A stretch of 33,301 nt of DNA, from the NCBI GenBank assembly GCA_022353185.1, contig JAKRWB010000072.1, forward strand, positions 1-33,301, written 5' to 3'. A program made the translations under genes and the position numbers. This stretch comes from ANME-2 cluster archaeon (GTDB lineage: Archaea; Halobacteriota; Methanosarcinia; Methanosarcinales; Methanocomedenaceae). Under the pieces are notes generated by a model that saw only the letters and a list, made by a program, of their open reading frames with translations, was not told the DNA's origin and did not search any database. Shown piece by piece: positions 12,238 to 19,101 of this stretch. How positions within the stretch are numbered: the first letter of the stretch is position 1; every line of letters begins with the position of its first letter.

Positions 12238-13389
12238 TCAAATATTCTGTGTGCCCCGGCTGATAATATCAACATAGTTGGCAAAAAAATACTTTTTATA
12301 TCTTTTCTTACCTGTTATTTCCCGTAAAATACCAATTTTTTCAAACTTTTTCACCAGTTCATTTACCGATACTGTGGAGATGTTCAATGTATCAACGATC
12401 TCGCTGCTGCTGACCAGTGGTCTGTCAAACAGGAAGTCCAGCATTTTCACAGCATAAATACTTGATATAGAATTTTCATACAATTTCAATATCAGGTCTT
12501 CCTTTAATTTGATTATCTCCCTGGCAGTATTTGCGGCCTCCTGTGAAGTTTCACTGACACCTGTTAAAAAGAACTTTATCCAGTCTTCCCATGCCCCCTC
12601 TGTGCGCACTTTCATCAGCAGGTCGTAATATTCATTCCTGTTGTTTTTCAGGTAAAAACTCAGATATAACAGGGGTTTTGACAGTATCTCTTTGTAGACC
12701 AGATAGAACGAAATCAGAAGTCTTCCCATCCTTCCGTTCCCATCCAGAAACGGGTGGATCGTCTCAAACTGGGCATGGATCAATGCAATCTTGACCAGGG
12801 GCGGGATGTTATCTTTTATGTGGAAAAACCGTTCAATTTCTTCCATTGCAGGTTGGACCATATCCGGTGGCGGCGGGACAAATGTTGCGTCATGTACAGA
12901 AGCCCCTGGTGTGCCGATATAATTCTGGAAAGCCCTGAATTCACCGGGGTCCAGGTTGGCACCTCTTGCGCCTTTCAGCAGTATTTCATGGATTTCTTTT
13001 ATGAGTTCCAGAGATACGGGATTATTCTCCAGTTTCTCTATGCCATAATTTAGCGCATTAACGTAATTCACTACTTCCTTGATATCCTTTACATCGTCTT
13101 TTGGTGTCAGGTCAGCTTCAAATTCCAGCACTCCTTCCAGGGATGCCTGGGTTCCTTCTATCTGTGAACTCAAAAGTGCCTCTTTTTTCACATACATGGC
13201 AATGAACAGGTCAGGATTTGGCAGGACAGTGGTAATGCCATCCAGTCGTGCAAGATTTCGGTCCGCCTTTGACAATAGCGAATGAAGCTCGTCATCATAT
13301 TCTATAGGGGGGTCAGGGGGCAGATTTTTCGGGATAAATGCACGATAACCGGCGGGCAGCAATTCATATGTTCCAGCTCTGTTGTCCAT
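12238..13389 (-). CDS. Fic/DOC family protein (Fic_N + Fic core + C-terminal wHTH-like)
   Basis: Fic active-site motif 'HPFLDGNGRMGRLL'. N-terminal inhibitory-helix motif 'SSQIEG' ([ST]xxxE[GN]). C-terminal 'SSSEIVDTLNISTVSVNELVKKFEKIGILREI' looks like a wHTH. Confidence 0.85.
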   Translation of the reverse strand: MDNRAGTYELLPAGYRAFIPKNLPPDPPIEYDDELHSLLSKADRNLARLDGITTVLPNPDLFIAMYVKKEALLSSQIEGTQASLEGVLEFEADLTPKDDVKDIKEVVNYVNALNYGIEKLENNPVSLELIKEIHEILLKGARGANLDPGEFRAFQNYIGTPGASVHDATFVPPPPDMVQPAMEEIERFFHIKDNIPPLVKIALIHAQFETIHPFLDGNGRMGRLLISFYLVYKEILSKPLLYLSFYLKNNRNEYYDLLMKVRTEGAWEDWIKFFLTGVSETSQEAANTAREIIKLKEDLILKLYENSISSIYAVKMLDFLFDRPLVSSSEIVDTLNISTVSVNELVKKFEKIGILREITGKKRYKKYFFANYVDIISRGTQNI

Positions 13390-13428: not shown

Positions 13429-13572
13429 TAAGTTAAGTAGAGTTAACTTAAAATGAGATATACCTTTCTAAGTTAGGGTGGGTTATGTAAGATTATGTTG
13501 AAAATCTGGTATAATTCAACAAACGACAATATACTCTGAAGTATATTACTTGAAAGTATATAATTTTCAAAG
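13429..13572. repeat. copy 1 of a ~144-nt diverged direct repeat (proximal to the Fic start)
   Basis: Aligns without gaps to 13674-13817 at an offset of 245 nt, with 109/144 identical positions by my hand count. Contains hairpin TAAGTTAA-gtagag-TTAACTTA (13429-13450) and a 22-nt perfectly shared core AGTATATTACTTGAAAGTATAT (13540-13561). Confidence 0.7.
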
Positions 13573-13673: not shown

Positions 13674-13817
13674 TAAGTTAAGGATTGTTAACTTAAATTG
13701 GGGTGCGGCTTTTTAAGTAAAGTTGGGTTATGGTAGATGATGTTAAAAGTCCGCTCTGATACAACAACGGATTAGACACTCTTGAGTATATTACTTGAAA
13801 GTATATGAATTTCATAG
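13674..13817. repeat. copy 2 of the ~144-nt diverged direct repeat (distal, no gene directly downstream)
   Basis: Same alignment as copy 1. Hairpin (T)TTAAGTTAA-ggattg-TTAACTTAA(A) at 13672-13697 has the same stem and a different loop. The 22-nt core is at 13785-13806. Confidence 0.7.
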
Positions 13818-13997
13818 TCACTACCCTTGATTCCGCTTCGCTCAAATCCAGGGCATCATTGGGCTGGAAGTCGGGTTGTGATGTGAATGGGGACAGAAGT
13901 GGGGTGTGTAAATGTGCATTCACCCGAGACAATTTATAATTGTGGTATAAGAAATATATCCCTTTGAAAAATGCATTGGTACATTCCAGATTCTGAC

Positions 13998-14483
13998 TTA
14001 ATCAAAATTCCAACACAAAATTTTTTCTTTTATGTCATTCTCATTCCCTATTCGTTTACATAAAGGTATTCTATCATATCCGCCATCGAAGGATAAAATA
14101 TAGTCAATTTTTAAAATTTCCATAATTTGAAGGTTTGTTGCATCGACCAATCCTATTGCTGGATTCCCATCCTTATGGTTGCAAAATGGTTTCAGTTTCG
14201 TATGAATTGCACCATCAACATCTTTCGGTTTAAGATGGTAAATTTTGCAGTGTTTCAACTCTTCATAATATTTGAGAGTTTCATGGAATTTTATTCCTTT
14301 TTGTAATTTATGGAATACCTCCACGATTATATAATCAGAAATGTACAAGTCTTCGAATCCTGAAATCAAATCTTTATCTATCAGTTCATCCCAAATAATA
14401 CACGCCTTGTTATGATGAGAATCTCTCGCATCTTTAAAACCAATGAAAAAACCGCTATCTACAAATAATCTCAATTTTGTCAT
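13998..14483 (-). CDS. PIN-domain (VapC-like) nuclease
   Basis: 161 aa with the four conserved acidic positions in typical contexts: D9 'LFVDSGFF', E55 'IIVEVF', D114 'GLVDATNL', D133 'LSFDGGYD'. Its ATG overlaps the upstream stop (ATGA at 14480-14483). Confidence 0.75.
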   Translation of the reverse strand: MTKLRLFVDSGFFIGFKDARDSHHNKACIIWDELIDKDLISGFEDLYISDYIIVEVFHKLQKGIKFHETLKYYEELKHCKIYHLKPKDVDGAIHTKLKPFCNHKDGNPAIGLVDATNLQIMEILKIDYILSFDGGYDRIPLCKRIGNENDIKEKILCWNFD

Positions 14484-14980
14484 AATACTGACTCTTTCGG
14501 TCGGTATTTTTTAGCAACTTTTGATATTGAGTTCACTGTCATTTCGGGATAAGCAGAATATATTCTTTCAAGCAGCTTTTCAGACGATAGATGATTATAA
14601 TTGATTTTTACGTACTTGAATTGGGATTTGATATCATCTTTTAATCTATTCCAAAACATATCAGATAATTCTTTTCCTTTTTCAGTCAAACTGATTTTTA
14701 TATAACTTGTGGATGAAGAATTTAAATTGACATATTTTGCATCTTTTAGACCATCAAGAGCTGCAAATATCGTTTCATCGAAGGGACCATAATTATCAGG
14801 TTCAAATTTGAGATCGCTTAATAAATTAGCACCTAAATCTGTTTTCTGAATAACAAACAATTCTTTCACTAGATGTGTCATACCAGGAATTGGAGTATAT
14901 TTTTTCCCTTTAATATCTTCAGACCTGAGTAAGGTCAAAATTGCTAATTGTGTCGCAGATAAATCAAAATCAAGATTCAT
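14480..14980 (-). CDS. Panacea (DUF4065/SocA/GepA)-like putative antitoxin with wHTH-like segment
   Basis: 'LAILTLLRS...GMTHLVKELFVIQKT...FEPDNYGPFDETIFAALDGL' matches the 'KLQKLLY...F.AW.YGP...vy' pattern of Panacea domains by eye. 'YIKISLTEKGKEL' is wHTH-like. ATGA overlaps at both ends (14977-14980, 14480-14483). Confidence 0.45.
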   Translation of the reverse strand: MNLDFDLSATQLAILTLLRSEDIKGKKYTPIPGMTHLVKELFVIQKTDLGANLLSDLKFEPDNYGPFDETIFAALDGLKDAKYVNLNSSSTSYIKISLTEKGKELSDMFWNRLKDDIKSQFKYVKINYNHLSSEKLLERIYSAYPEMTVNSISKVAKKYRPKESVL

Positions 14981-16206
14981 TTAAACCACTTATCAAGACT
15001 TAATGTACAATTCCCAAACCGAAAAGATTTCATTTCCGATGTTTCAACACTGATTTTATCTTTTTCTAATAAATAATCTAATAAATTATTATTTTCAATA
15101 GATTTTGGATATTCTCGAATTTCATTTATTGTCTTTTCAATATTATGTTTTTTACAAATTTTTCTGATACTATAATCAGACATTTCAGAAAGATCAGATA
15201 AATCAATATCTCTTAGTACTTGGGTGTTAATAAGTTCTTCAACTTTTTTAACATTTACCAAATCATTGATGTTTGTAAAACCATAATTTTGGTCGTTAAA
15301 AATATACTTATTAGGAGTATTTTGTGCTATAATTCTCGGTATCACATGGTTTGGACTATATGTGTCAAAGCCAAAACCAGTTCCTAACAAGTTATTTATT
15401 CGACTTGTGTTTGTTTTTCCAATTTTAAACCTCGAATTTAATCCATTGATTATGTATAACTCTTCACTTTGTTTGCTTAATTTTGATAATTCATAATGTA
15501 ACCTTTCTATTGCATATCCGAAGGCACCATATTTTTTATTTTCACAATTATATCCGAAAATGCGACAACCATTGTTCCAGTATTTTTCCAATAATTTTGG
15601 GTCTATTAAATTATATGATGACGGGACGATTGCCATTATTGGAAGATTTTTTCTATCAATTGCAGCTATTTGCCTATCATGAAAAGTTTCAATCAACTTT
15701 CCATAATCATCGGAATTAGATAATGTCCCTAATAAAGGAGTAGTAATAATAGAATTGCCAGGAGTACCCCATAAAACATCAAAAACAAACTCTTGAACAT
15801 GTTCTGGCATGAGCTGATTTAATGGACGTCCCTTATCATCAGTAATTGAGAATAATATATATGGAAGAGCACCAGCCTTTTTTAATTCTAATAATCTGTT
15901 CGAAATTCTTGAACAAAATTTTTCCCCTTTTTCATCATTATTGATGTATTCATTTAATTGGCTTAAAGAGACTTTTGCATATACTTCGCCAAATGGTTTG
16001 AACTTGTTATCAATTAGCGATTCAGCTGTCTTAAGCTCTAAATTATCCGATTGATTAACTCCAATGGTTCGTGTTGGGGTAATTACGGTGTTACCATTGA
16101 TTTTTACTTTACAAGAACGGATGAAATACTTCTCTTCTCTGCCGATCTCCTCGATATCCAAATTTATCATATCATTCATAAGACACTTATGTAACATCGT
16201 TTTCAT
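14977..16206 (-). CDS. uncharacterised protein, first gene of the three-gene cassette (family unknown)
   Basis: Long uninterrupted ORF in a ~22-35% GC region, coupled to the next gene by an ATGA overlap. Start is uncertain: TTG 16221; ATG 16206, 16197, 16179, 16170. A TATA-like 'atatatgtataa' (minus strand, ~16205-16216) would favour a near-leaderless start at 16179 or 16170. Confidence 0.6.
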   Translation of the reverse strand: MKTMLHKCLMNDMINLDIEEIGREEKYFIRSCKVKINGNTVITPTRTIGVNQSDNLELKTAESLIDNKFKPFGEVYAKVSLSQLNEYINNDEKGEKFCSRISNRLLELKKAGALPYILFSITDDKGRPLNQLMPEHVQEFVFDVLWGTPGNSIITTPLLGTLSNSDDYGKLIETFHDRQIAAIDRKNLPIMAIVPSSYNLIDPKLLEKYWNNGCRIFGYNCENKKYGAFGYAIERLHYELSKLSKQSEELYIINGLNSRFKIGKTNTSRINNLLGTGFGFDTYSPNHVIPRIIAQNTPNKYIFNDQNYGFTNINDLVNVKKVEELINTQVLRDIDLSDLSEMSDYSIRKICKKHNIEKTINEIREYPKSIENNNLLDYLLEKDKISVETSEMKSFRFGNCTLSLDKWFK

Positions 16207-16408
16207 TATACATATATCCAATCCACATCAGAAAAGCACATCAATCACACACCCAACCGGACATAGTCATAAATCCCCCATCCTGCAGTCACCACTATAC
16301 CAACCACAACGTACCAATCCTGCATACAACCAATTTTTTAAGATTATCTCCCTGCAACAACCCCACCAAAAAAATAATCCCAGGCCCCTCAAAAGCCCAA
16401 AACCTGAC

Positions 16409-17485: not shown

Positions 17486-17656
17486 TTACAAGGAGATTGC
17501 ACTCGTAGGACAGGCATCGACGCATAACCCACAATCTGTGCATTCATCACTTATTACAGCGATATCGTCATCATTCATCGTGATGGCTTCCTGGGGACAT
17601 TCATCCACGCAGGTACCGCATCCAACACACTCGTCTGCATCTACTTTTGCCACCAT
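17486..17656 (-). CDS. 2x[4Fe-4S] ferredoxin (56 aa), absent from the ORF track
   Basis: My translation of the minus strand is '[56 protein letters not shown]'. It has two CxxCxxCxxxCP motifs. GGGAGA lies ~8 nt upstream of the ATG. Confidence 0.8.
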
Positions 17657-17709: not shown

Positions 17710-17886
17710 TTATTCCACCGAAATTGCTTCGGTTGGACAGGCATCCACACACATTCCGCAGTCCGTACATTCATCGGCATTAACCACTGCGATGTCGTCA
17801 CTATTCATTGAAATGGCTTCAGCTGGGCATTCATCTACGCAGGTTCCGCATCCAGTGCATTCACTTACATTTACTTTTGCTACCAT
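17710..17886 (-). CDS. 2x[4Fe-4S] ferredoxin (58 aa), tandem paralogue, absent from the ORF track
   Basis: My translation is '[58 protein letters not shown]'. It has two CxxCxxCxxxCP motifs. AGGAGAG lies upstream of the ATG. Confidence 0.8.
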
Positions 17887-18027: not shown

Positions 18028-19101
18028 ATGAACCAAAACCGCACACTAAAGGGCACACTCGACGGCCAGACTGTGAAACTTGATGCCAGTACCAGGGAAA
18101 CCCTCTATGACACCAGTTTCTACGGGCGGCCAATGGACAATTATCTGGAATTGACACTCATCGAGGCCGCATACCTTACCTATAAAAACCGGGTTACTGT
18201 CACCCATGAAAACGAAGACCTTGACTTCGAGGGCCTTATGTGCGAATCAAGTCGCAGGGAAGGCAACTTCGAAGTGAAATACATCGTCTACAAAGACCTG
18301 CGCGAGAGAGGTTACTTCATAAAACCCGGCGTCACTGATTTCAGGGTATATCCCCGAGGCGGCAAACCAGGCAAGACCCCATCCAAATATTTCATCCATG
18401 TACTCTCCGAGCGCCAGCCTGTGCCGTTAATAAATCTGGTGCACCACGTTAAAACCGCCGCCAACGTGCGCAAGGAACTGGTGATGGCAGTGGTGGACGA
18501 AGAAAGCGATATCACCTACTACGGAGTCAATCTGCGCAGCATGAAAGGAGATATGGGAACAGCCCACTCCGGTGCCGCCATCAGGGCCACCCTGCTGGAA
18601 GACAGGGTAATGGTCTGGGACAGTCATTCCTCGGATTTGCTGCACAAACAACATCTCTTTGGTAAACCCCTGGACGAAACAAGACTCCAGCTTTCACTGA
18701 TCGAAGCAGCATACCTCCAGGAAAAGAACATTATAGATCTCAAGGATAGCCTGGGCGAACACGTCCTGACCCAGGCTGAATTTTCAGATATGTCCACAAC
18801 CGTGGAAGCCGATTTCCCGATAAAATTGGCAGTGTACCAAAACCTGCGGGATGCGGGAATGGTAGTCAAGACCGGGTACAAGTTCGGCAACCACTTCCGG
18901 GTTTACAAGAAAGTGGAAGCCAGTGTGGGAATGAAACATTCGGAATTCCTGGTCCATGCCGTGGACAGCAACCACGTGTTCAACCTACCCCAATTGTCCC
19001 GGGCCGTTAGATTGGCAAACAGTGTGAGAAAACAGATGGTTTTTGCCTGGCAGTCGGGCGATGACATAGTATATCTGGAACTTGGCAGGATGAAGATGTA
19101 A
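18028..19101 (+). CDS. endA: tRNA-splicing endonuclease, duplicated-domain (alpha2-type) form
   Basis: 357 aa with two tandem EndA-like halves: 'YIVYKDLRERGYFIKPGVTDFRVYPRG' and 'LAVYQNLRDAGMVVKTGYKFGNHFRVYKK...HSEFLVHAV...LSRAVRLANSVRK'. The catalytic Y/H/K context is present in the second half. Confidence 0.85.
   Translation: MNQNRTLKGTLDGQTVKLDASTRETLYDTSFYGRPMDNYLELTLIEAAYLTYKNRVTVTHENEDLDFEGLMCESSRREGNFEVKYIVYKDLRERGYFIKPGVTDFRVYPRGGKPGKTPSKYFIHVLSERQPVPLINLVHHVKTAANVRKELVMAVVDEESDITYYGVNLRSMKGDMGTAHSGAAIRATLLEDRVMVWDSHSSDLLHKQHLFGKPLDETRLQLSLIEAAYLQEKNIIDLKDSLGEHVLTQAEFSDMSTTVEADFPIKLAVYQNLRDAGMVVKTGYKFGNHFRVYKKVEASVGMKHSEFLVHAVDSNHVFNLPQLSRAVRLANSVRKQMVFAWQSGDDIVYLELGRMKM

What the first reader, a model, noticed from the sequence alone, without database searches (positions are those of the whole stretch)
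13998..16221. Translationally coupled three-gene cassette: unknown 414-aa protein, Panacea/wHTH-like protein and PIN nuclease (candidate novel TA/defence system)
Three minus-strand ORFs are chained by ATGA stop/start overlaps (14977-14980 and 14480-14483), so they look like one co-translated unit. It is the most AT-rich part of the window. The last gene is a clear PIN/VapC-type nuclease with D9, E55, D114 and D133 in canonical contexts. The middle gene resembles the Panacea (DUF4065, SocA/GepA) antitoxin domain ('THLVKELFVIQK...FEPDNYGPFDETIFAALDGL') with a wHTH-like segment. A Panacea-PIN pair alone would be an ordinary type II TA module. Here it is coupled to a large, enzyme-sized protein that I cannot place in any family. 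I do not recognise this three-part architecture as a described TA or antiviral system.
Basis: partly seen in the sequence, partly recalled or inferred. Interest (0 to 1): 0.8.

Follow-up and report, generated by a model that had tools for sequence, protein, structure and literature searches.

The report
Archaeal TGT-like enzyme, adaptor, PIN cassette
A mobile three-gene cassette of methane-cycling archaea joins a previously undescribed relative of the tRNA base-swapping enzyme TGT to a small adaptor protein and a PIN RNA-cutting toxin, and it looks like an undescribed toxin-antitoxin or antiviral system.

Summary
Three overlapping minus-strand genes sit in the window's most AT-rich stretch. 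All three are under purifying selection (dN/dS 0.16-0.29).

- **Gene C** is a canonical PIN nuclease. Its four acidic residues are invariant in eight orthologues.
- **Gene B** is a winged-helix plus helical protein. Its best structural match is the toxin-binding C-terminal domain of antitoxin DarG. Its Panacea similarity is consistent but below threshold.
Its fold matches tRNA-guanine transglycosylase (TGT): Foldseek E 1e-9, and a profile hit to archaeosine TGT at E 1e-5. It keeps the nucleophile aspartate but lacks the zinc site. It matches no Pfam, NCBIfam, PADLOC or PHROG model.

The trio is syntenic in 10 of 11 genome loci. It moves as a 2.25-kb unit with its own upstream region.

A larger sister subfamily, mostly from Asgard and ANME archaea, keeps A and B. 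There, B is fused to a UPF0175 antitoxin domain and paired with a different, DUF3368-type PIN (41 of 41 informative loci). Two other variants carry membrane proteins in place of the PIN.

So A plus B is the constant core and the effector is swappable. I read this as a new three-component toxin-antitoxin or abortive-infection module. No paper describing it was found.

The parts
14977..16179 (-). Gene A: 400-aa TGT-fold TIM-barrel protein with a helical C-terminal region. The maximal ORF extends to a TTG at 16221.
   Evidence: ORF; start inferred from homologues. AF2 model has pLDDT 82.8 and pTM 0.86. The top 50 Foldseek PDB hits are all tRNA-guanine or archaeosine transglycosylases, E 1.6e-9, TM 0.51-0.55. 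A family HMM puts archaeosine TGT 1iq8 as best PDB sequence hit, E 1.3e-5. hhalign against a TGT alignment is colinear over 327 columns, E 0.0018. No Pfam, NCBIfam, PADLOC or PHROG family matches.
14480..14980 (-). Gene B: 166-aa winged-helix plus helical adaptor, the putative antitoxin, resembling DarG-CTD and Panacea.
   Evidence: AF2 pLDDT 91. Best Foldseek hit is 7yk3 chains D/B, the DarG C-terminal domain in the DarTG complex, E 3.5e-5, TM 0.60. PADLOC hits: DarG 8.8e-6, PDC-M19A 1.2e-7, LmuC 7e-4. Pfam hits to DUF6293_C, DUF4364 and SocA_Panacea are all below threshold. In the sister subfamily the same domain is fused to a UPF0175 antitoxin domain.
13998..14483 (-). Gene C: 161-aa PIN (VapC-like) nuclease, the putative toxin or effector.
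   Evidence: Pfam PIN E 2.2e-5, above the gathering score. D9, E55, D114 and D133 are invariant in eight orthologues.
14977..14980 (-). ATGA overlap of the A stop codon and the B start codon.
   Evidence: Read directly; conserved in L001-L003.
14480..14483 (-). ATGA overlap of the B stop codon and the C start codon.
   Evidence: Read directly; conserved in L001-L003.
16180..16241 (-). Upstream region that travels with the cassette. It holds an A/T-rich TATA-like stretch (GGATATATGTATAAT), a possible archaeal promoter for a leaderless or short-leader mRNA.
   Evidence: Nucleotide identity to L001, L002 and L003 stops at 16235-16267. The promoter role is inferred from sequence only.
13989..16241 (-). 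The whole mobile cassette, about 2.25 kb.
   Evidence: 94% nucleotide identity to two Methanosarcinales MAG contigs and 87% to an ANME-1 contig is confined to these limits, and the flanking genes differ in each genome.

Best explanation
This is a self-contained, horizontally mobile three-component conflict module of the toxin-antitoxin or abortive-infection type.

Gene C is a PIN ribonuclease that acts as the toxic effector. Gene B is its partner. B holds the effector in check through its C-terminal part, in the position where the sister subfamily carries a genuine UPF0175 PIN-antitoxin domain. Through its winged-helix, DarG-CTD-like domain, B couples to gene A.

Gene A is a divergent, zinc-less relative of tRNA-guanine transglycosylase. 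It most likely binds a nucleic acid and acts on a base, by flipping it out or by cleaving or exchanging it at the glycosidic bond. A works upstream as the sensing or triggering component. It does not protect the PIN's substrate. When A meets its cue, for example foreign or modified nucleic acid during infection or loss of the element, the A-B complex changes and the effector is released, which stops the cell.

Shown here: gene identities and folds, strict A-B-effector linkage, mobility, purifying selection, and effector swapping. Inferred: who binds whom, A's activity and substrate, and the antiviral role.
For: - **Linkage.** The trio is present in 10 of 11 genome loci, down to 36% identity of A; the eleventh contig ends inside B.
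- **Sister subfamily.** It has 83 of 119 full-length representatives. All 41 loci with enough upstream sequence carry a B-domain protein plus a PIN. There, B is fused to UPF0175 (E 4e-14; precomputed Pfam hit). UPF0175 is the predicted antitoxin found only with COG2405/DUF3368 PINs (PMC2701414, PMC5499597). The PIN in that subfamily is of the DUF3368 type.
- **Variable order and effector.** Gene order differs: A-B-C, B-PIN-A, or divergent. The PIN families are non-orthologous. A and B stay together throughout.
- **Non-PIN variants.** Two further variants carry membrane proteins in place of the PIN. A and B are therefore unlikely to work by modifying the PIN's RNA target.
- **B structure.** It matches the toxin-binding domain of antitoxin DarG.
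- **A.** TGT fold and weak sequence homology. The superfamily conserves E62, N245, D269 and H275, and D269 aligns with the TGT nucleophile aspartate.
- **Mobility and context.** Sharp cassette boundaries, lowest GC in the window, and a SoFic defence gene alongside. Neighbours elsewhere include TIR, MNT-HEPN, UPF0175, STAND, OLD/Gabija-like ATPases, restriction-modification genes, transposases and integrases.
- **Decay.** The PIN carries a premature stop in the ANME-1 copy while A and B are intact. The whole trio is decayed in L009.
- **Viruses.** Not found on IMG/VR viral contigs.
Against: - No experiment supports toxicity, neutralisation or defence.
- The window's subfamily has S, N and N where the larger subfamily has three conserved aspartates (D140, D208, D260). 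A may therefore be catalytically altered or inactive here.
- Sequence similarity to TGT is marginal: hhalign probability is 14.6%, and the HMMER segments against ArcTGT may be shifted by one beta/alpha unit. Residue equivalences are not secure.
- Defence-gene enrichment among neighbours was not tested against a background, and many neighbours are housekeeping genes.
- The membrane-effector variants rest on two loci only.
- One distant A homologue (L101) has no B nearby.
Confidence: 0.55

Rival explanations
1. Two toxins, one antitoxin. A is itself a toxic nucleic-acid base-excising or base-exchanging enzyme. B's DarG-CTD-like domain blocks A's substrate groove, as DarG's C-terminal domain blocks DarT. 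B's C-terminal tail, or the UPF0175 domain in the sister subfamily, neutralises the PIN.
For: B's best structural match is the DarT-binding domain of DarG (PADLOC DarG). In the sister subfamily the B domain and a complete PIN-antitoxin domain are fused, which suggests the B domain has its own, separate partner. A keeps a conserved acidic pocket that includes the aspartate aligned with the TGT nucleophile. A and B are translationally coupled.
Against: A precedes B in the window but is divergently transcribed from B in many loci, which is unusual for a toxin-antitoxin pair needing tight stoichiometry. Three conserved aspartates are substituted in the window's subfamily. The PIN, not A, is the gene hit by a nonsense mutation in L003.
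Confidence: 0.2
2. An ordinary VapBC-type addiction module that stabilises genomic islets. A is a passenger or accessory enzyme with no role in toxin control, like the accessory third genes seen with some PanAT pairs.
For: The B-then-C order with an ATGA overlap is the classic type II antitoxin-toxin layout. The PIN is canonical. The cassette is mobile and decays in some genomes. [quoted passage not shown]
Against: A is not occasional. It accompanies the B domain in essentially every informative locus across subfamilies that share under 25% identity. It stays while the effector and the gene order change. The profile search with the B-domain alignment returned mostly the B and B2 families that accompany A. 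The only hits from another context were three DUF488 fusions.
Confidence: 0.12
3. A restriction-modification-like pair. A installs a modified base in the host's own tRNA, rRNA or DNA, and the PIN cuts unmodified (foreign) nucleic acid, by analogy with DpdA in the Dpd system.
For: A has the fold of base-exchange enzymes that act on tRNA and DNA. Dpd systems use a TGT paralogue to mark self DNA (PMC10164549; PMC12839542). VapC-type PINs commonly cut tRNA (PMC5175351).
Against: Variants carry membrane proteins in place of the PIN. A substrate-marking enzyme would serve no purpose for those. No DpdB or DpdC partners or 7-deazaguanine synthesis genes appear among the 25 most frequent neighbour families, which are the only ones the tool listed. 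The guanine-binding aspartate of TGT (E. coli D143) has no counterpart, and the zinc site is missing. B looks like a toxin binder, not a restriction specificity factor.
Confidence: 0.08
4. A housekeeping tRNA-modification or RNA-processing operon of methanogens.
For: TGT-fold enzymes and PIN nucleases both take part in normal RNA maturation. The window's flanking genes are translation-related: AspRS and tRNA intron endonuclease.
Against: The distribution is patchy: 11 loci among 185,579 species genomes. The neighbours differ in every genome. GC is 28% inside a 45-50% genome region. Near-identical DNA occurs in unrelated contexts. Some copies are pseudogenised.
Confidence: 0.03

Closest known systems
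VapBC-type type II toxin-antitoxin modules, including the predicted UPF0175 (COG2886) - COG2405/DUF3368 PIN pairs
   Same: A small PIN toxin gene lies directly after, and overlaps, a gene for a DNA-binding-fold partner. The module is mobile, patchy and prone to decay. The sister subfamily literally contains a UPF0175 domain and a DUF3368-type PIN.
   Different: A 400-aa TGT-fold protein is an obligatory third member. The partner protein carries a roughly 150-aa DarG-CTD/Panacea-like domain not seen in VapB antitoxins. In some variants the effector is a membrane protein instead of a PIN.
PanAT systems (Panacea/DUF4065 antitoxins; Kurata et al. 2022, PMC8832971)
   Same: One antitoxin-type domain is combined with interchangeable toxins. 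There is weak, consistent sequence resemblance (a KELF...FEP..GP motif; sub-threshold PF13274 hits in 15 of 25 homologues).
   Different: B does not reach the Pfam threshold. In PanAT, third genes are occasional accessories. Here gene A is constant and the toxin is the variable part.
DarTG (DarG antitoxin C-terminal domain, PDB 7yk3)
   Same: B's predicted fold matches the DarT-binding domain of DarG (E 3.5e-5, TM 0.60). In both systems an enzyme that acts on nucleic-acid bases is associated with this domain.
   Different: There is no macrodomain and no DarT ADP-ribosyltransferase. The enzyme (A) is a separate protein of an unrelated fold, and a PIN is added.
tRNA-guanine transglycosylase family (bacterial TGT, archaeosine TGT, and DpdA of the Dpd DNA-modification/restriction system)
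   Same: Same (beta/alpha)8 barrel with an N-terminal hairpin and a C-terminal helical part. Shared features are the TP motif, the aspartate aligned with the nucleophile, and the helix that follows the TGT zinc site and keeps the Asn of TGT's HN motif.
   Different: About 12% identity and no PF01702 match. The CxCxxC...H zinc site and the guanine-binding aspartate are missing. A has its own conserved residues (E62, N245, H275). It has none of the extra RNA-binding domains of archaeosine TGT (PUA and others) and no Dpd partners. Its genomic context is a toxin module.
Three-component PIN systems (HTH + DUF955 protease + PIN; Matelska et al. 2017) and tripartite toxin-antitoxin-chaperone modules
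   Same: A PIN or toxin-antitoxin pair is extended by a third protein that controls the antitoxin.
   Different: There the third protein is a protease or a chaperone. Here it is a TGT-fold protein of a previously undescribed family.

Membership tests
PIN domain / VapC toxin (PF01850) | Profile match above the curated threshold | tested here: met
   25.5 bits against a cut-off of 23.6, E 2.2e-5, covering residues 7-139.
PIN domain / VapC toxin (PF01850) | Four conserved acidic active-site residues | tested here: met
   D9, E55, D114 and D133 are invariant in eight orthologues.
PIN domain / VapC toxin (PF01850) | Ribonuclease activity and growth inhibition, neutralised by the upstream gene product | not testable with these tools
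   Needs expression and cleavage assays. The only indirect hint is the nonsense mutation in the L003 PIN.
Panacea / SocA antitoxin domain (PF13274, DUF4065) | Profile match above the curated threshold | tested here: not met
   15.0 bits against 25.7, E 0.048. 15 of 25 homologues give sub-threshold hits, best 0.002. None of 105 relatives has a precomputed PF13274 hit.
Panacea / SocA antitoxin domain (PF13274, DUF4065) | Encoded next to, and paired with, varied toxin genes | tested here: met
   The B domain is found with PF01850-type PINs, with DUF3368-type PINs, and with membrane proteins.
DarG antitoxin | C-terminal toxin-binding domain fold | tested here: met
   Foldseek 7yk3_D E 3.5e-5, TM 0.60. 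PADLOC DarG E 8.8e-6 over profile positions 167-283.
DarG antitoxin | N-terminal macrodomain and a DarT partner | tested here: not met
   B is 166 aa with no macrodomain hit. A and C have no PADLOC hits at all.
tRNA-guanine transglycosylase family (PF01702; TGT, ArcTGT, DpdA) | TGT (beta/alpha)8 fold | tested here: met
   The top 50 PDB hits are all TGT or ArcTGT, E 1.6e-9 to 1.9e-8, probability 1.0, TM 0.50-0.55.
tRNA-guanine transglycosylase family (PF01702; TGT, ArcTGT, DpdA) | Profile match above the curated threshold | tested here: not met
   No PF01702 hit for the window protein. One of 60 superfamily members reaches E 0.042. TIGR00432 scores E 0.0024, 16 bits against a cut-off of 350. 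The family HMM against ArcTGT gives E 1.3e-5.
tRNA-guanine transglycosylase family (PF01702; TGT, ArcTGT, DpdA) | Catalytic nucleophile aspartate (E. coli D264, Z. mobilis D280 from my own knowledge of the family) | tested here: inconclusive
   hhalign places A's GFG-FD(269) on TGT's GiDmFD(264). D269 is D in 54 of 60 members and N in 6. The alignment probability is low (14.6%), and a HMMER local alignment to ArcTGT suggests another register.
tRNA-guanine transglycosylase family (PF01702; TGT, ArcTGT, DpdA) | Zinc site CxCxxC...H | tested here: not met
   No cysteine triad exists in A or in the family consensus. In the HN motif only the Asn is conserved.
tRNA-guanine transglycosylase family (PF01702; TGT, ArcTGT, DpdA) | Guanine/preQ-binding aspartate (E. 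coli D143) | tested here: not met
   It falls in an alignment gap. A has hydrophobic residues after the conserved P145.
Dpd-type DNA modification/restriction system | DpdA together with DpdB (ParB-like), DpdC and 7-deazaguanine synthesis genes | tested here: not met
   None appears in the window or among the 25 most frequent Pfam families of 109 neighbours. Only the top 25 families were visible.
Any system in PADLOC-DB v2 | All components match models of one listed system | tested here: not met
   A and C give 0 hits. B gives only partial hits to single components of unrelated systems.

The most novel reading that the evidence does not exclude
This is a previously unrecognised family of archaeal immune or conflict systems. 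It occurs in Methanosarcinales, ANME, Methanoregulaceae, Methanoperedens and several Asgard lineages. Its invariant core is a zinc-less TGT-fold enzyme plus a Panacea/DarG-CTD-like adaptor. The enzyme reads or edits a nucleic-acid base, for example by excising or exchanging modified guanines in viral DNA or in a host tRNA. That event is the switch that releases interchangeable effectors (two PIN families, or membrane proteins). It would be the first case of base-exchange chemistry used as the sensor of a toxin or abortive-infection system.
Probability: 0.3. Interest if true: 0.85.

Novelty: new variant of a known kind. Interest (0 to 1): 0.72.

Why it matters
Archaeal defence and toxin-antitoxin biology is far less charted than its bacterial counterpart. 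This work defines three things:

- a new protein family, with about 150 clusters at 50% identity, all annotated as hypothetical, that extends the tRNA-guanine transglycosylase fold into conflict systems;
- a new adaptor domain that links this family to classic PIN toxins;
- a core-plus-swappable-effector architecture of the kind seen in genuine immune systems.

If the TGT-like protein acts on nucleic-acid bases, the system would connect base-exchange or glycosylase chemistry with toxin activation. It might also target the 7-deazaguanine DNA modifications that viruses use to evade restriction.

The system occurs in Asgard archaea, including a B homologue in the cultured Lokiarchaeum ossiferum, and in methane-cycling archaea. 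That gives both evolutionary interest and a possible experimental entry point.

Tried and rejected
- **Sequence-only placement of A.** Pfam, NCBIfam, PADLOC and PHROGs gave nothing. An HMM of close homologues against PDB sequences gave nothing. Only the broader 60-sequence profile reached ArcTGT.
- **hhalign of the A family against a single E. coli TGT.** It aligned only 39 columns. I then built an 8-sequence TGT alignment from TGT genes found in 'phage' records.
- **TGT genes in sequence already fetched.** None were found.
- **BFVD viral structure search for A.** Only weak matches to uncharacterised phage proteins and GH5-type barrels. I rejected a glycoside-hydrolase reading because every strong PDB match is a TGT.
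- **ArcTGT local alignment.** It would put the nucleophile on A's 'IFN' motif. I judged it shifted by one beta/alpha unit, because ArcTGT's 'PIGGVVP' is strand 6 and not strand 5.
- **Viral contigs (IMG/VR) for both A subfamilies.** No relatives were found.
- **Exact-sequence look-up of the window's Asd**, to find an island-free allele. It is not on record.
- **Rfam, tRNA and bacterial promoter/terminator scans around the cassette.** They gave nothing useful. Sigma-70 patterns do not apply to archaea.
- **Literature searches** for TGT-like plus PIN, UPF0175 plus TIM barrel, and TGT plus VapC. No description of this trio was found. The three-component PIN systems in PMC5499597 are HTH plus DUF955 protease systems.
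Full report
**Observation**

The three minus-strand ORFs exist as described. C runs 13998-14483 (161 aa), B runs 14480-14980 (166 aa), and A runs 14977-16221 as the longest ORF from a TTG (414 aa). Close homologues begin MNDMINLD or MSDMINLD, so ATG 16179 (400 aa) is the likely start of A.

Both junctions are ATGA stop/start overlaps. The same overlaps occur in the three closest copies. GC falls to 0.28-0.31 across 14001-16000. That is the lowest in the window, against 0.39-0.53 elsewhere.

The genes are real. Pairwise dN/dS against three related copies is 0.16-0.29 for all three genes.

**Gene C**

C matches Pfam PIN above the gathering threshold (25.5 vs 23.6 bits). It is a canonical VapC-like PIN.

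**Gene B**

- Pfam gives only sub-threshold hits: DUF4364, the DUF6293_C winged helix, and SocA_Panacea at E 0.048. Among 25 homologues these recur in 21, 22 and 15 members respectively.
- PADLOC gives partial hits to PDC-M19A (1e-7), the C-terminal part of DarG (9e-6) and LmuC.
- The AlphaFold model is confident (pLDDT 91).
- Its only strong PDB matches are chains D and B of 7yk3, the C-terminal DarT-binding domain of antitoxin DarG (E 3.5e-5, TM 0.60). Ordinary MarR and PadR winged-helix regulators follow at E > 0.01.

B is therefore a winged-helix plus helical protein of the kind used to bind and neutralise toxins. Panacea membership is not met at the family threshold. None of 105 relatives carries a precomputed PF13274 hit.

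**Gene A**

No Pfam, NCBIfam, PADLOC or PHROG family matches it. It belongs to a family of 58 database clusters, all annotated 'hypothetical', about 400 aa long and mostly archaeal.

The AlphaFold model built from 30 homologues (pLDDT 82.8, pTM 0.86) is a (beta/alpha)8 barrel with an N-terminal hairpin and a helical C-terminal region. All of the top 50 Foldseek hits in the PDB are bacterial tRNA-guanine transglycosylases or archaeosine TGT (E 1.6e-9 to 1.9e-8, probability 1.0, TM 0.50-0.55, about 12% identity).

An exhaustive profile search found a wider superfamily. It has 148 representatives at 50% identity, nearly all 370-410 aa and matched over their full length. No member has a Pfam family.

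A 60-sequence profile of this superfamily puts P. horikoshii archaeosine TGT as the best of 177,635 PDB sequences (E 1.3e-5). hhalign against an 8-sequence bacterial TGT alignment is colinear over 327 columns (E 0.0018, but probability only 14.6%). That alignment shows the following:

- The N-terminal '...TP' motif matches, strand 5 matches ('PIMAIVPSS' on 'LFGIIQGS'), and the helix carrying TGT's 'HN' motif matches.
- A's 'GFGFD(269)' lies on TGT's 'GxDMFD' nucleophile aspartate.
- TGT's guanine-binding aspartate falls in a gap.
- The CxCxxC...H zinc site is absent.

Residues conserved across the superfamily are E62, N245, D269, H275, Y296, N343, E350 and K370. D140, D208 and D260 are also conserved, but the window's subfamily has S, N and N at those three positions.

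One HMMER segment against ArcTGT appears shifted by one beta/alpha unit. I therefore treat residue-level equivalences as provisional.

Conclusion: A is a new, divergent, zinc-less branch of the TGT fold. Homology is probable. Membership of the TGT family as curated is not met.

**Synteny and mobility**

A scan of one genome per species (185,579 species) found 11 loci. They come from Methanosarcinales, ANME-1, Methanoregulaceae, Methanoperedens, a 'Methanobacteriota' MAG and two MAGs labelled bacterial.

B follows A in all 11 loci. C follows B in 10, and the eleventh contig ends inside B. This holds down to 36% identity of A. The neighbours differ in every locus.

Nucleotide identity of 94% (two Methanosarcinales MAGs) and 87% (ANME-1) is confined to window positions 13989-16241, or 13815-16267 for one of them. 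That span is the three genes plus about 45-60 nt upstream containing an A/T-rich TATA-like stretch. The cassette therefore moves as a unit with its own upstream region.

Two copies have decayed:

- In the ANME-1 copy the PIN has an in-frame stop at codon 65, while A and B are intact.
- In L009 the A gene is frameshifted and B is damaged.

No relatives were found on IMG/VR viral contigs.

**The wider superfamily gives the key functional clue**

Clustering splits the full-length representatives into the window's subfamily (11), a large sister subfamily (83) and several small groups. Named members of the sister subfamily come from Freyarchaeota, Heimdallarchaeota, Baldrarchaeota, Wolframiiraptor, ANME-2 and Methanosarcinales.

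I fetched 80 metagenomic loci of the sister subfamily:

- 63 contain a protein of about 195 aa that matches the B profile (E 1e-12 to 1e-24).
- All 41 loci with at least 1.4 kb upstream of A have both this protein and a roughly 162-aa gene right after it.
- The 195-aa protein is the complete B domain followed by a UPF0175 domain (E down to 4e-14, above threshold).
- The 162-aa protein is a PIN of the DUF3368/COG2405 type (precomputed Pfam hits).

UPF0175 (COG2886) is the predicted antitoxin found only with COG2405 PINs (PMC2701414; PMC5499597).

Gene order in the sister subfamily is B-PIN-A, or PIN and B transcribed divergently from A. In another small group the order is A followed by convergent PIN and B genes, nested between two MmeI/Eco57I-type restriction-modification genes.

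Two further variants keep A and B but carry other proteins in place of the PIN. One is a 127-aa protein with an N-terminal hydrophobic helix, in the window's own A-B-X order, on a contig with a Rep_1 gene. The other is a 202-aa protein with three hydrophobic segments. One distant A homologue has no B nearby.

A plus the B domain is therefore the constant core. The third gene is a swappable effector.

**Context**

In the window the cassette lies in a low-GC islet together with a SoFic-type Fic gene (PADLOC SoFic E 2e-121). The islet sits between aspartyl-tRNA synthetase and aspartate-semialdehyde dehydrogenase.

In other loci the immediate neighbours include a UPF0175 protein, an ATPase_2/DUF234 protein, a TIR protein, an MNT-HEPN pair, a DprA/SLOG protein with a PRTase, and an ORC/Cdc6-like STAND protein.

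Among 109 neighbours of the sister subfamily, the most frequent families are OLD/Gabija/Septu-type ATPases, DDE transposases, integrases, PD-(D/E)XK nucleases, type I restriction-modification subunits and Schlafen/AlbA_2. Many ordinary metabolic genes also occur. I did not test enrichment against a background.

**Mechanism**

The best-supported reading is a three-component toxin-antitoxin or abortive-infection module.

- **Shown:** a canonical PIN effector; an adaptor whose fold matches a toxin-binding antitoxin domain and which, in the sister subfamily, is physically fused to a PIN-specific antitoxin domain; and a TGT-fold protein that is always present.
- **Inferred:** B restrains the effector and couples it to A, and A acts upstream as the sensor or trigger.

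The effector can be a membrane protein. A and B therefore cannot work by chemically protecting the PIN's RNA substrate. This argues against a restriction-modification-like model.

A's conserved acidic pocket suggests that it binds a nucleic acid and acts on a base. The pocket includes the aspartate aligned with the TGT nucleophile. The substitutions at three conserved aspartates in the window's subfamily leave open whether A is an active enzyme here.

The main rival is that A is itself a toxin held by B's DarG-CTD-like domain. That would make B one antitoxin for two toxins.

**Comparison with known systems and novelty**

The module works like a VapBC or PanAT type II system extended by a third component. 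It resembles DarTG in pairing a nucleic-acid-base enzyme with a DarG-CTD-like domain. It is not a member of PanAT, DarTG, Dpd or any PADLOC system (see the membership table).

The three-component PIN systems in the literature I read involve an HTH protein and a DUF955 protease (PMC5499597). TGT homologues in defence are described for Dpd and for BREX-related capture systems (PMC12839542). Neither involves PIN toxins or this adaptor.

I found no paper that describes this trio. The library does not cover all journals.

I rate it a new variant of a known kind: a toxin-antitoxin or abortive-infection module built on a new enzyme family and a new adaptor domain. A substantial chance remains that the A-B core is a new sensing principle.

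**Verdict**

The finding is real and conserved, and I found no published description. Interest is 0.72. Confidence is about 0.8 that this is a mobile conflict module made of these three parts. Confidence is about 0.55 for the specific sensor-adaptor-effector reading.

Noticed in passing
window 12238-13389 (-): A Fic-domain gene matches the PADLOC single-gene defence system SoFic almost end to end (E 2e-121; Fic_N, Fic and HTH_13 domains). It lies next to the cassette in the same low-GC islet between aspS and asd.
   Followed up: partly
window 13429-13572 and 13674-13817: A 144-nt direct repeat (76% identity, with an exact shared 22-mer ATATACTTTCAAGTAATATACT) lies in the non-coding stretch between the PIN and the Fic gene. 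Only two copies exist in the window and there is no Rfam match. The sequence around the second copy is partly shared with the region downstream of the cassette in L002.
   Followed up: partly
L003 6151-6640 (ANME-1 cluster archaeon GoMg2): The PIN gene of this otherwise intact cassette has an in-frame stop at codon 65. A and B remain under purifying selection (dN/dS 0.21-0.25). This could be toxin inactivation or a sequencing error.
   Followed up: partly
L009 6001-8180 (Methanoregulaceae MAG): A decayed copy of the trio. A is split over three frames, B has a scrambled segment, and the PIN is N-terminally truncated.
   Followed up: no
P0349-P0351: The B-like domain also occurs as the N-terminal half of roughly 270-300-aa proteins whose C-terminal half is DUF488. 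This probably corresponds to PADLOC candidate PDC-M19A (294-position model), which B hits at E 1e-7. The adaptor domain may therefore be reused in another candidate defence system.
   Followed up: partly
L100 219-2406 and 3495-4601: A variant (A, B, then a 127-aa protein with an N-terminal hydrophobic helix) lies on a 10.8-kb contig that also encodes a Rep_1 rolling-circle replication protein. It may be a plasmid or a small virus.
   Followed up: no
L102 1300-9197 and L103 1-7836: A variant of the system (A, with convergent DUF3368 PIN and B genes) is nested between two large MmeI/Eco57I-type restriction-modification genes. This is a clear defence-island setting.
   Followed up: no
P0340: A B-domain homologue comes from the 6.27-Mb genome of the cultured Asgard archaeon Candidatus Lokiarchaeum ossiferum, a possible experimental entry point. 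I did not check whether A and an effector lie next to it.
   Followed up: no
L004 and L010: Two loci carrying the complete trio come from MAGs labelled Bacteroidota and 'bacterium'. L004 is a 2.7-kb contig. L010 is a 21.7-kb contig with 58% GC. Either the system has reached bacteria or these contigs are mis-binned.
   Followed up: no
window 17486-17656 and 17710-17886 (-); 18028-19101 (+): Two tandem small 2x[4Fe-4S] ferredoxin genes (56 and 58 aa, clearly paralogous) lie next to a 357-aa tRNA intron endonuclease in which both Pfam domains are matched twice. These are ordinary housekeeping genes and mark the edge of the islet.
   Followed up: partly
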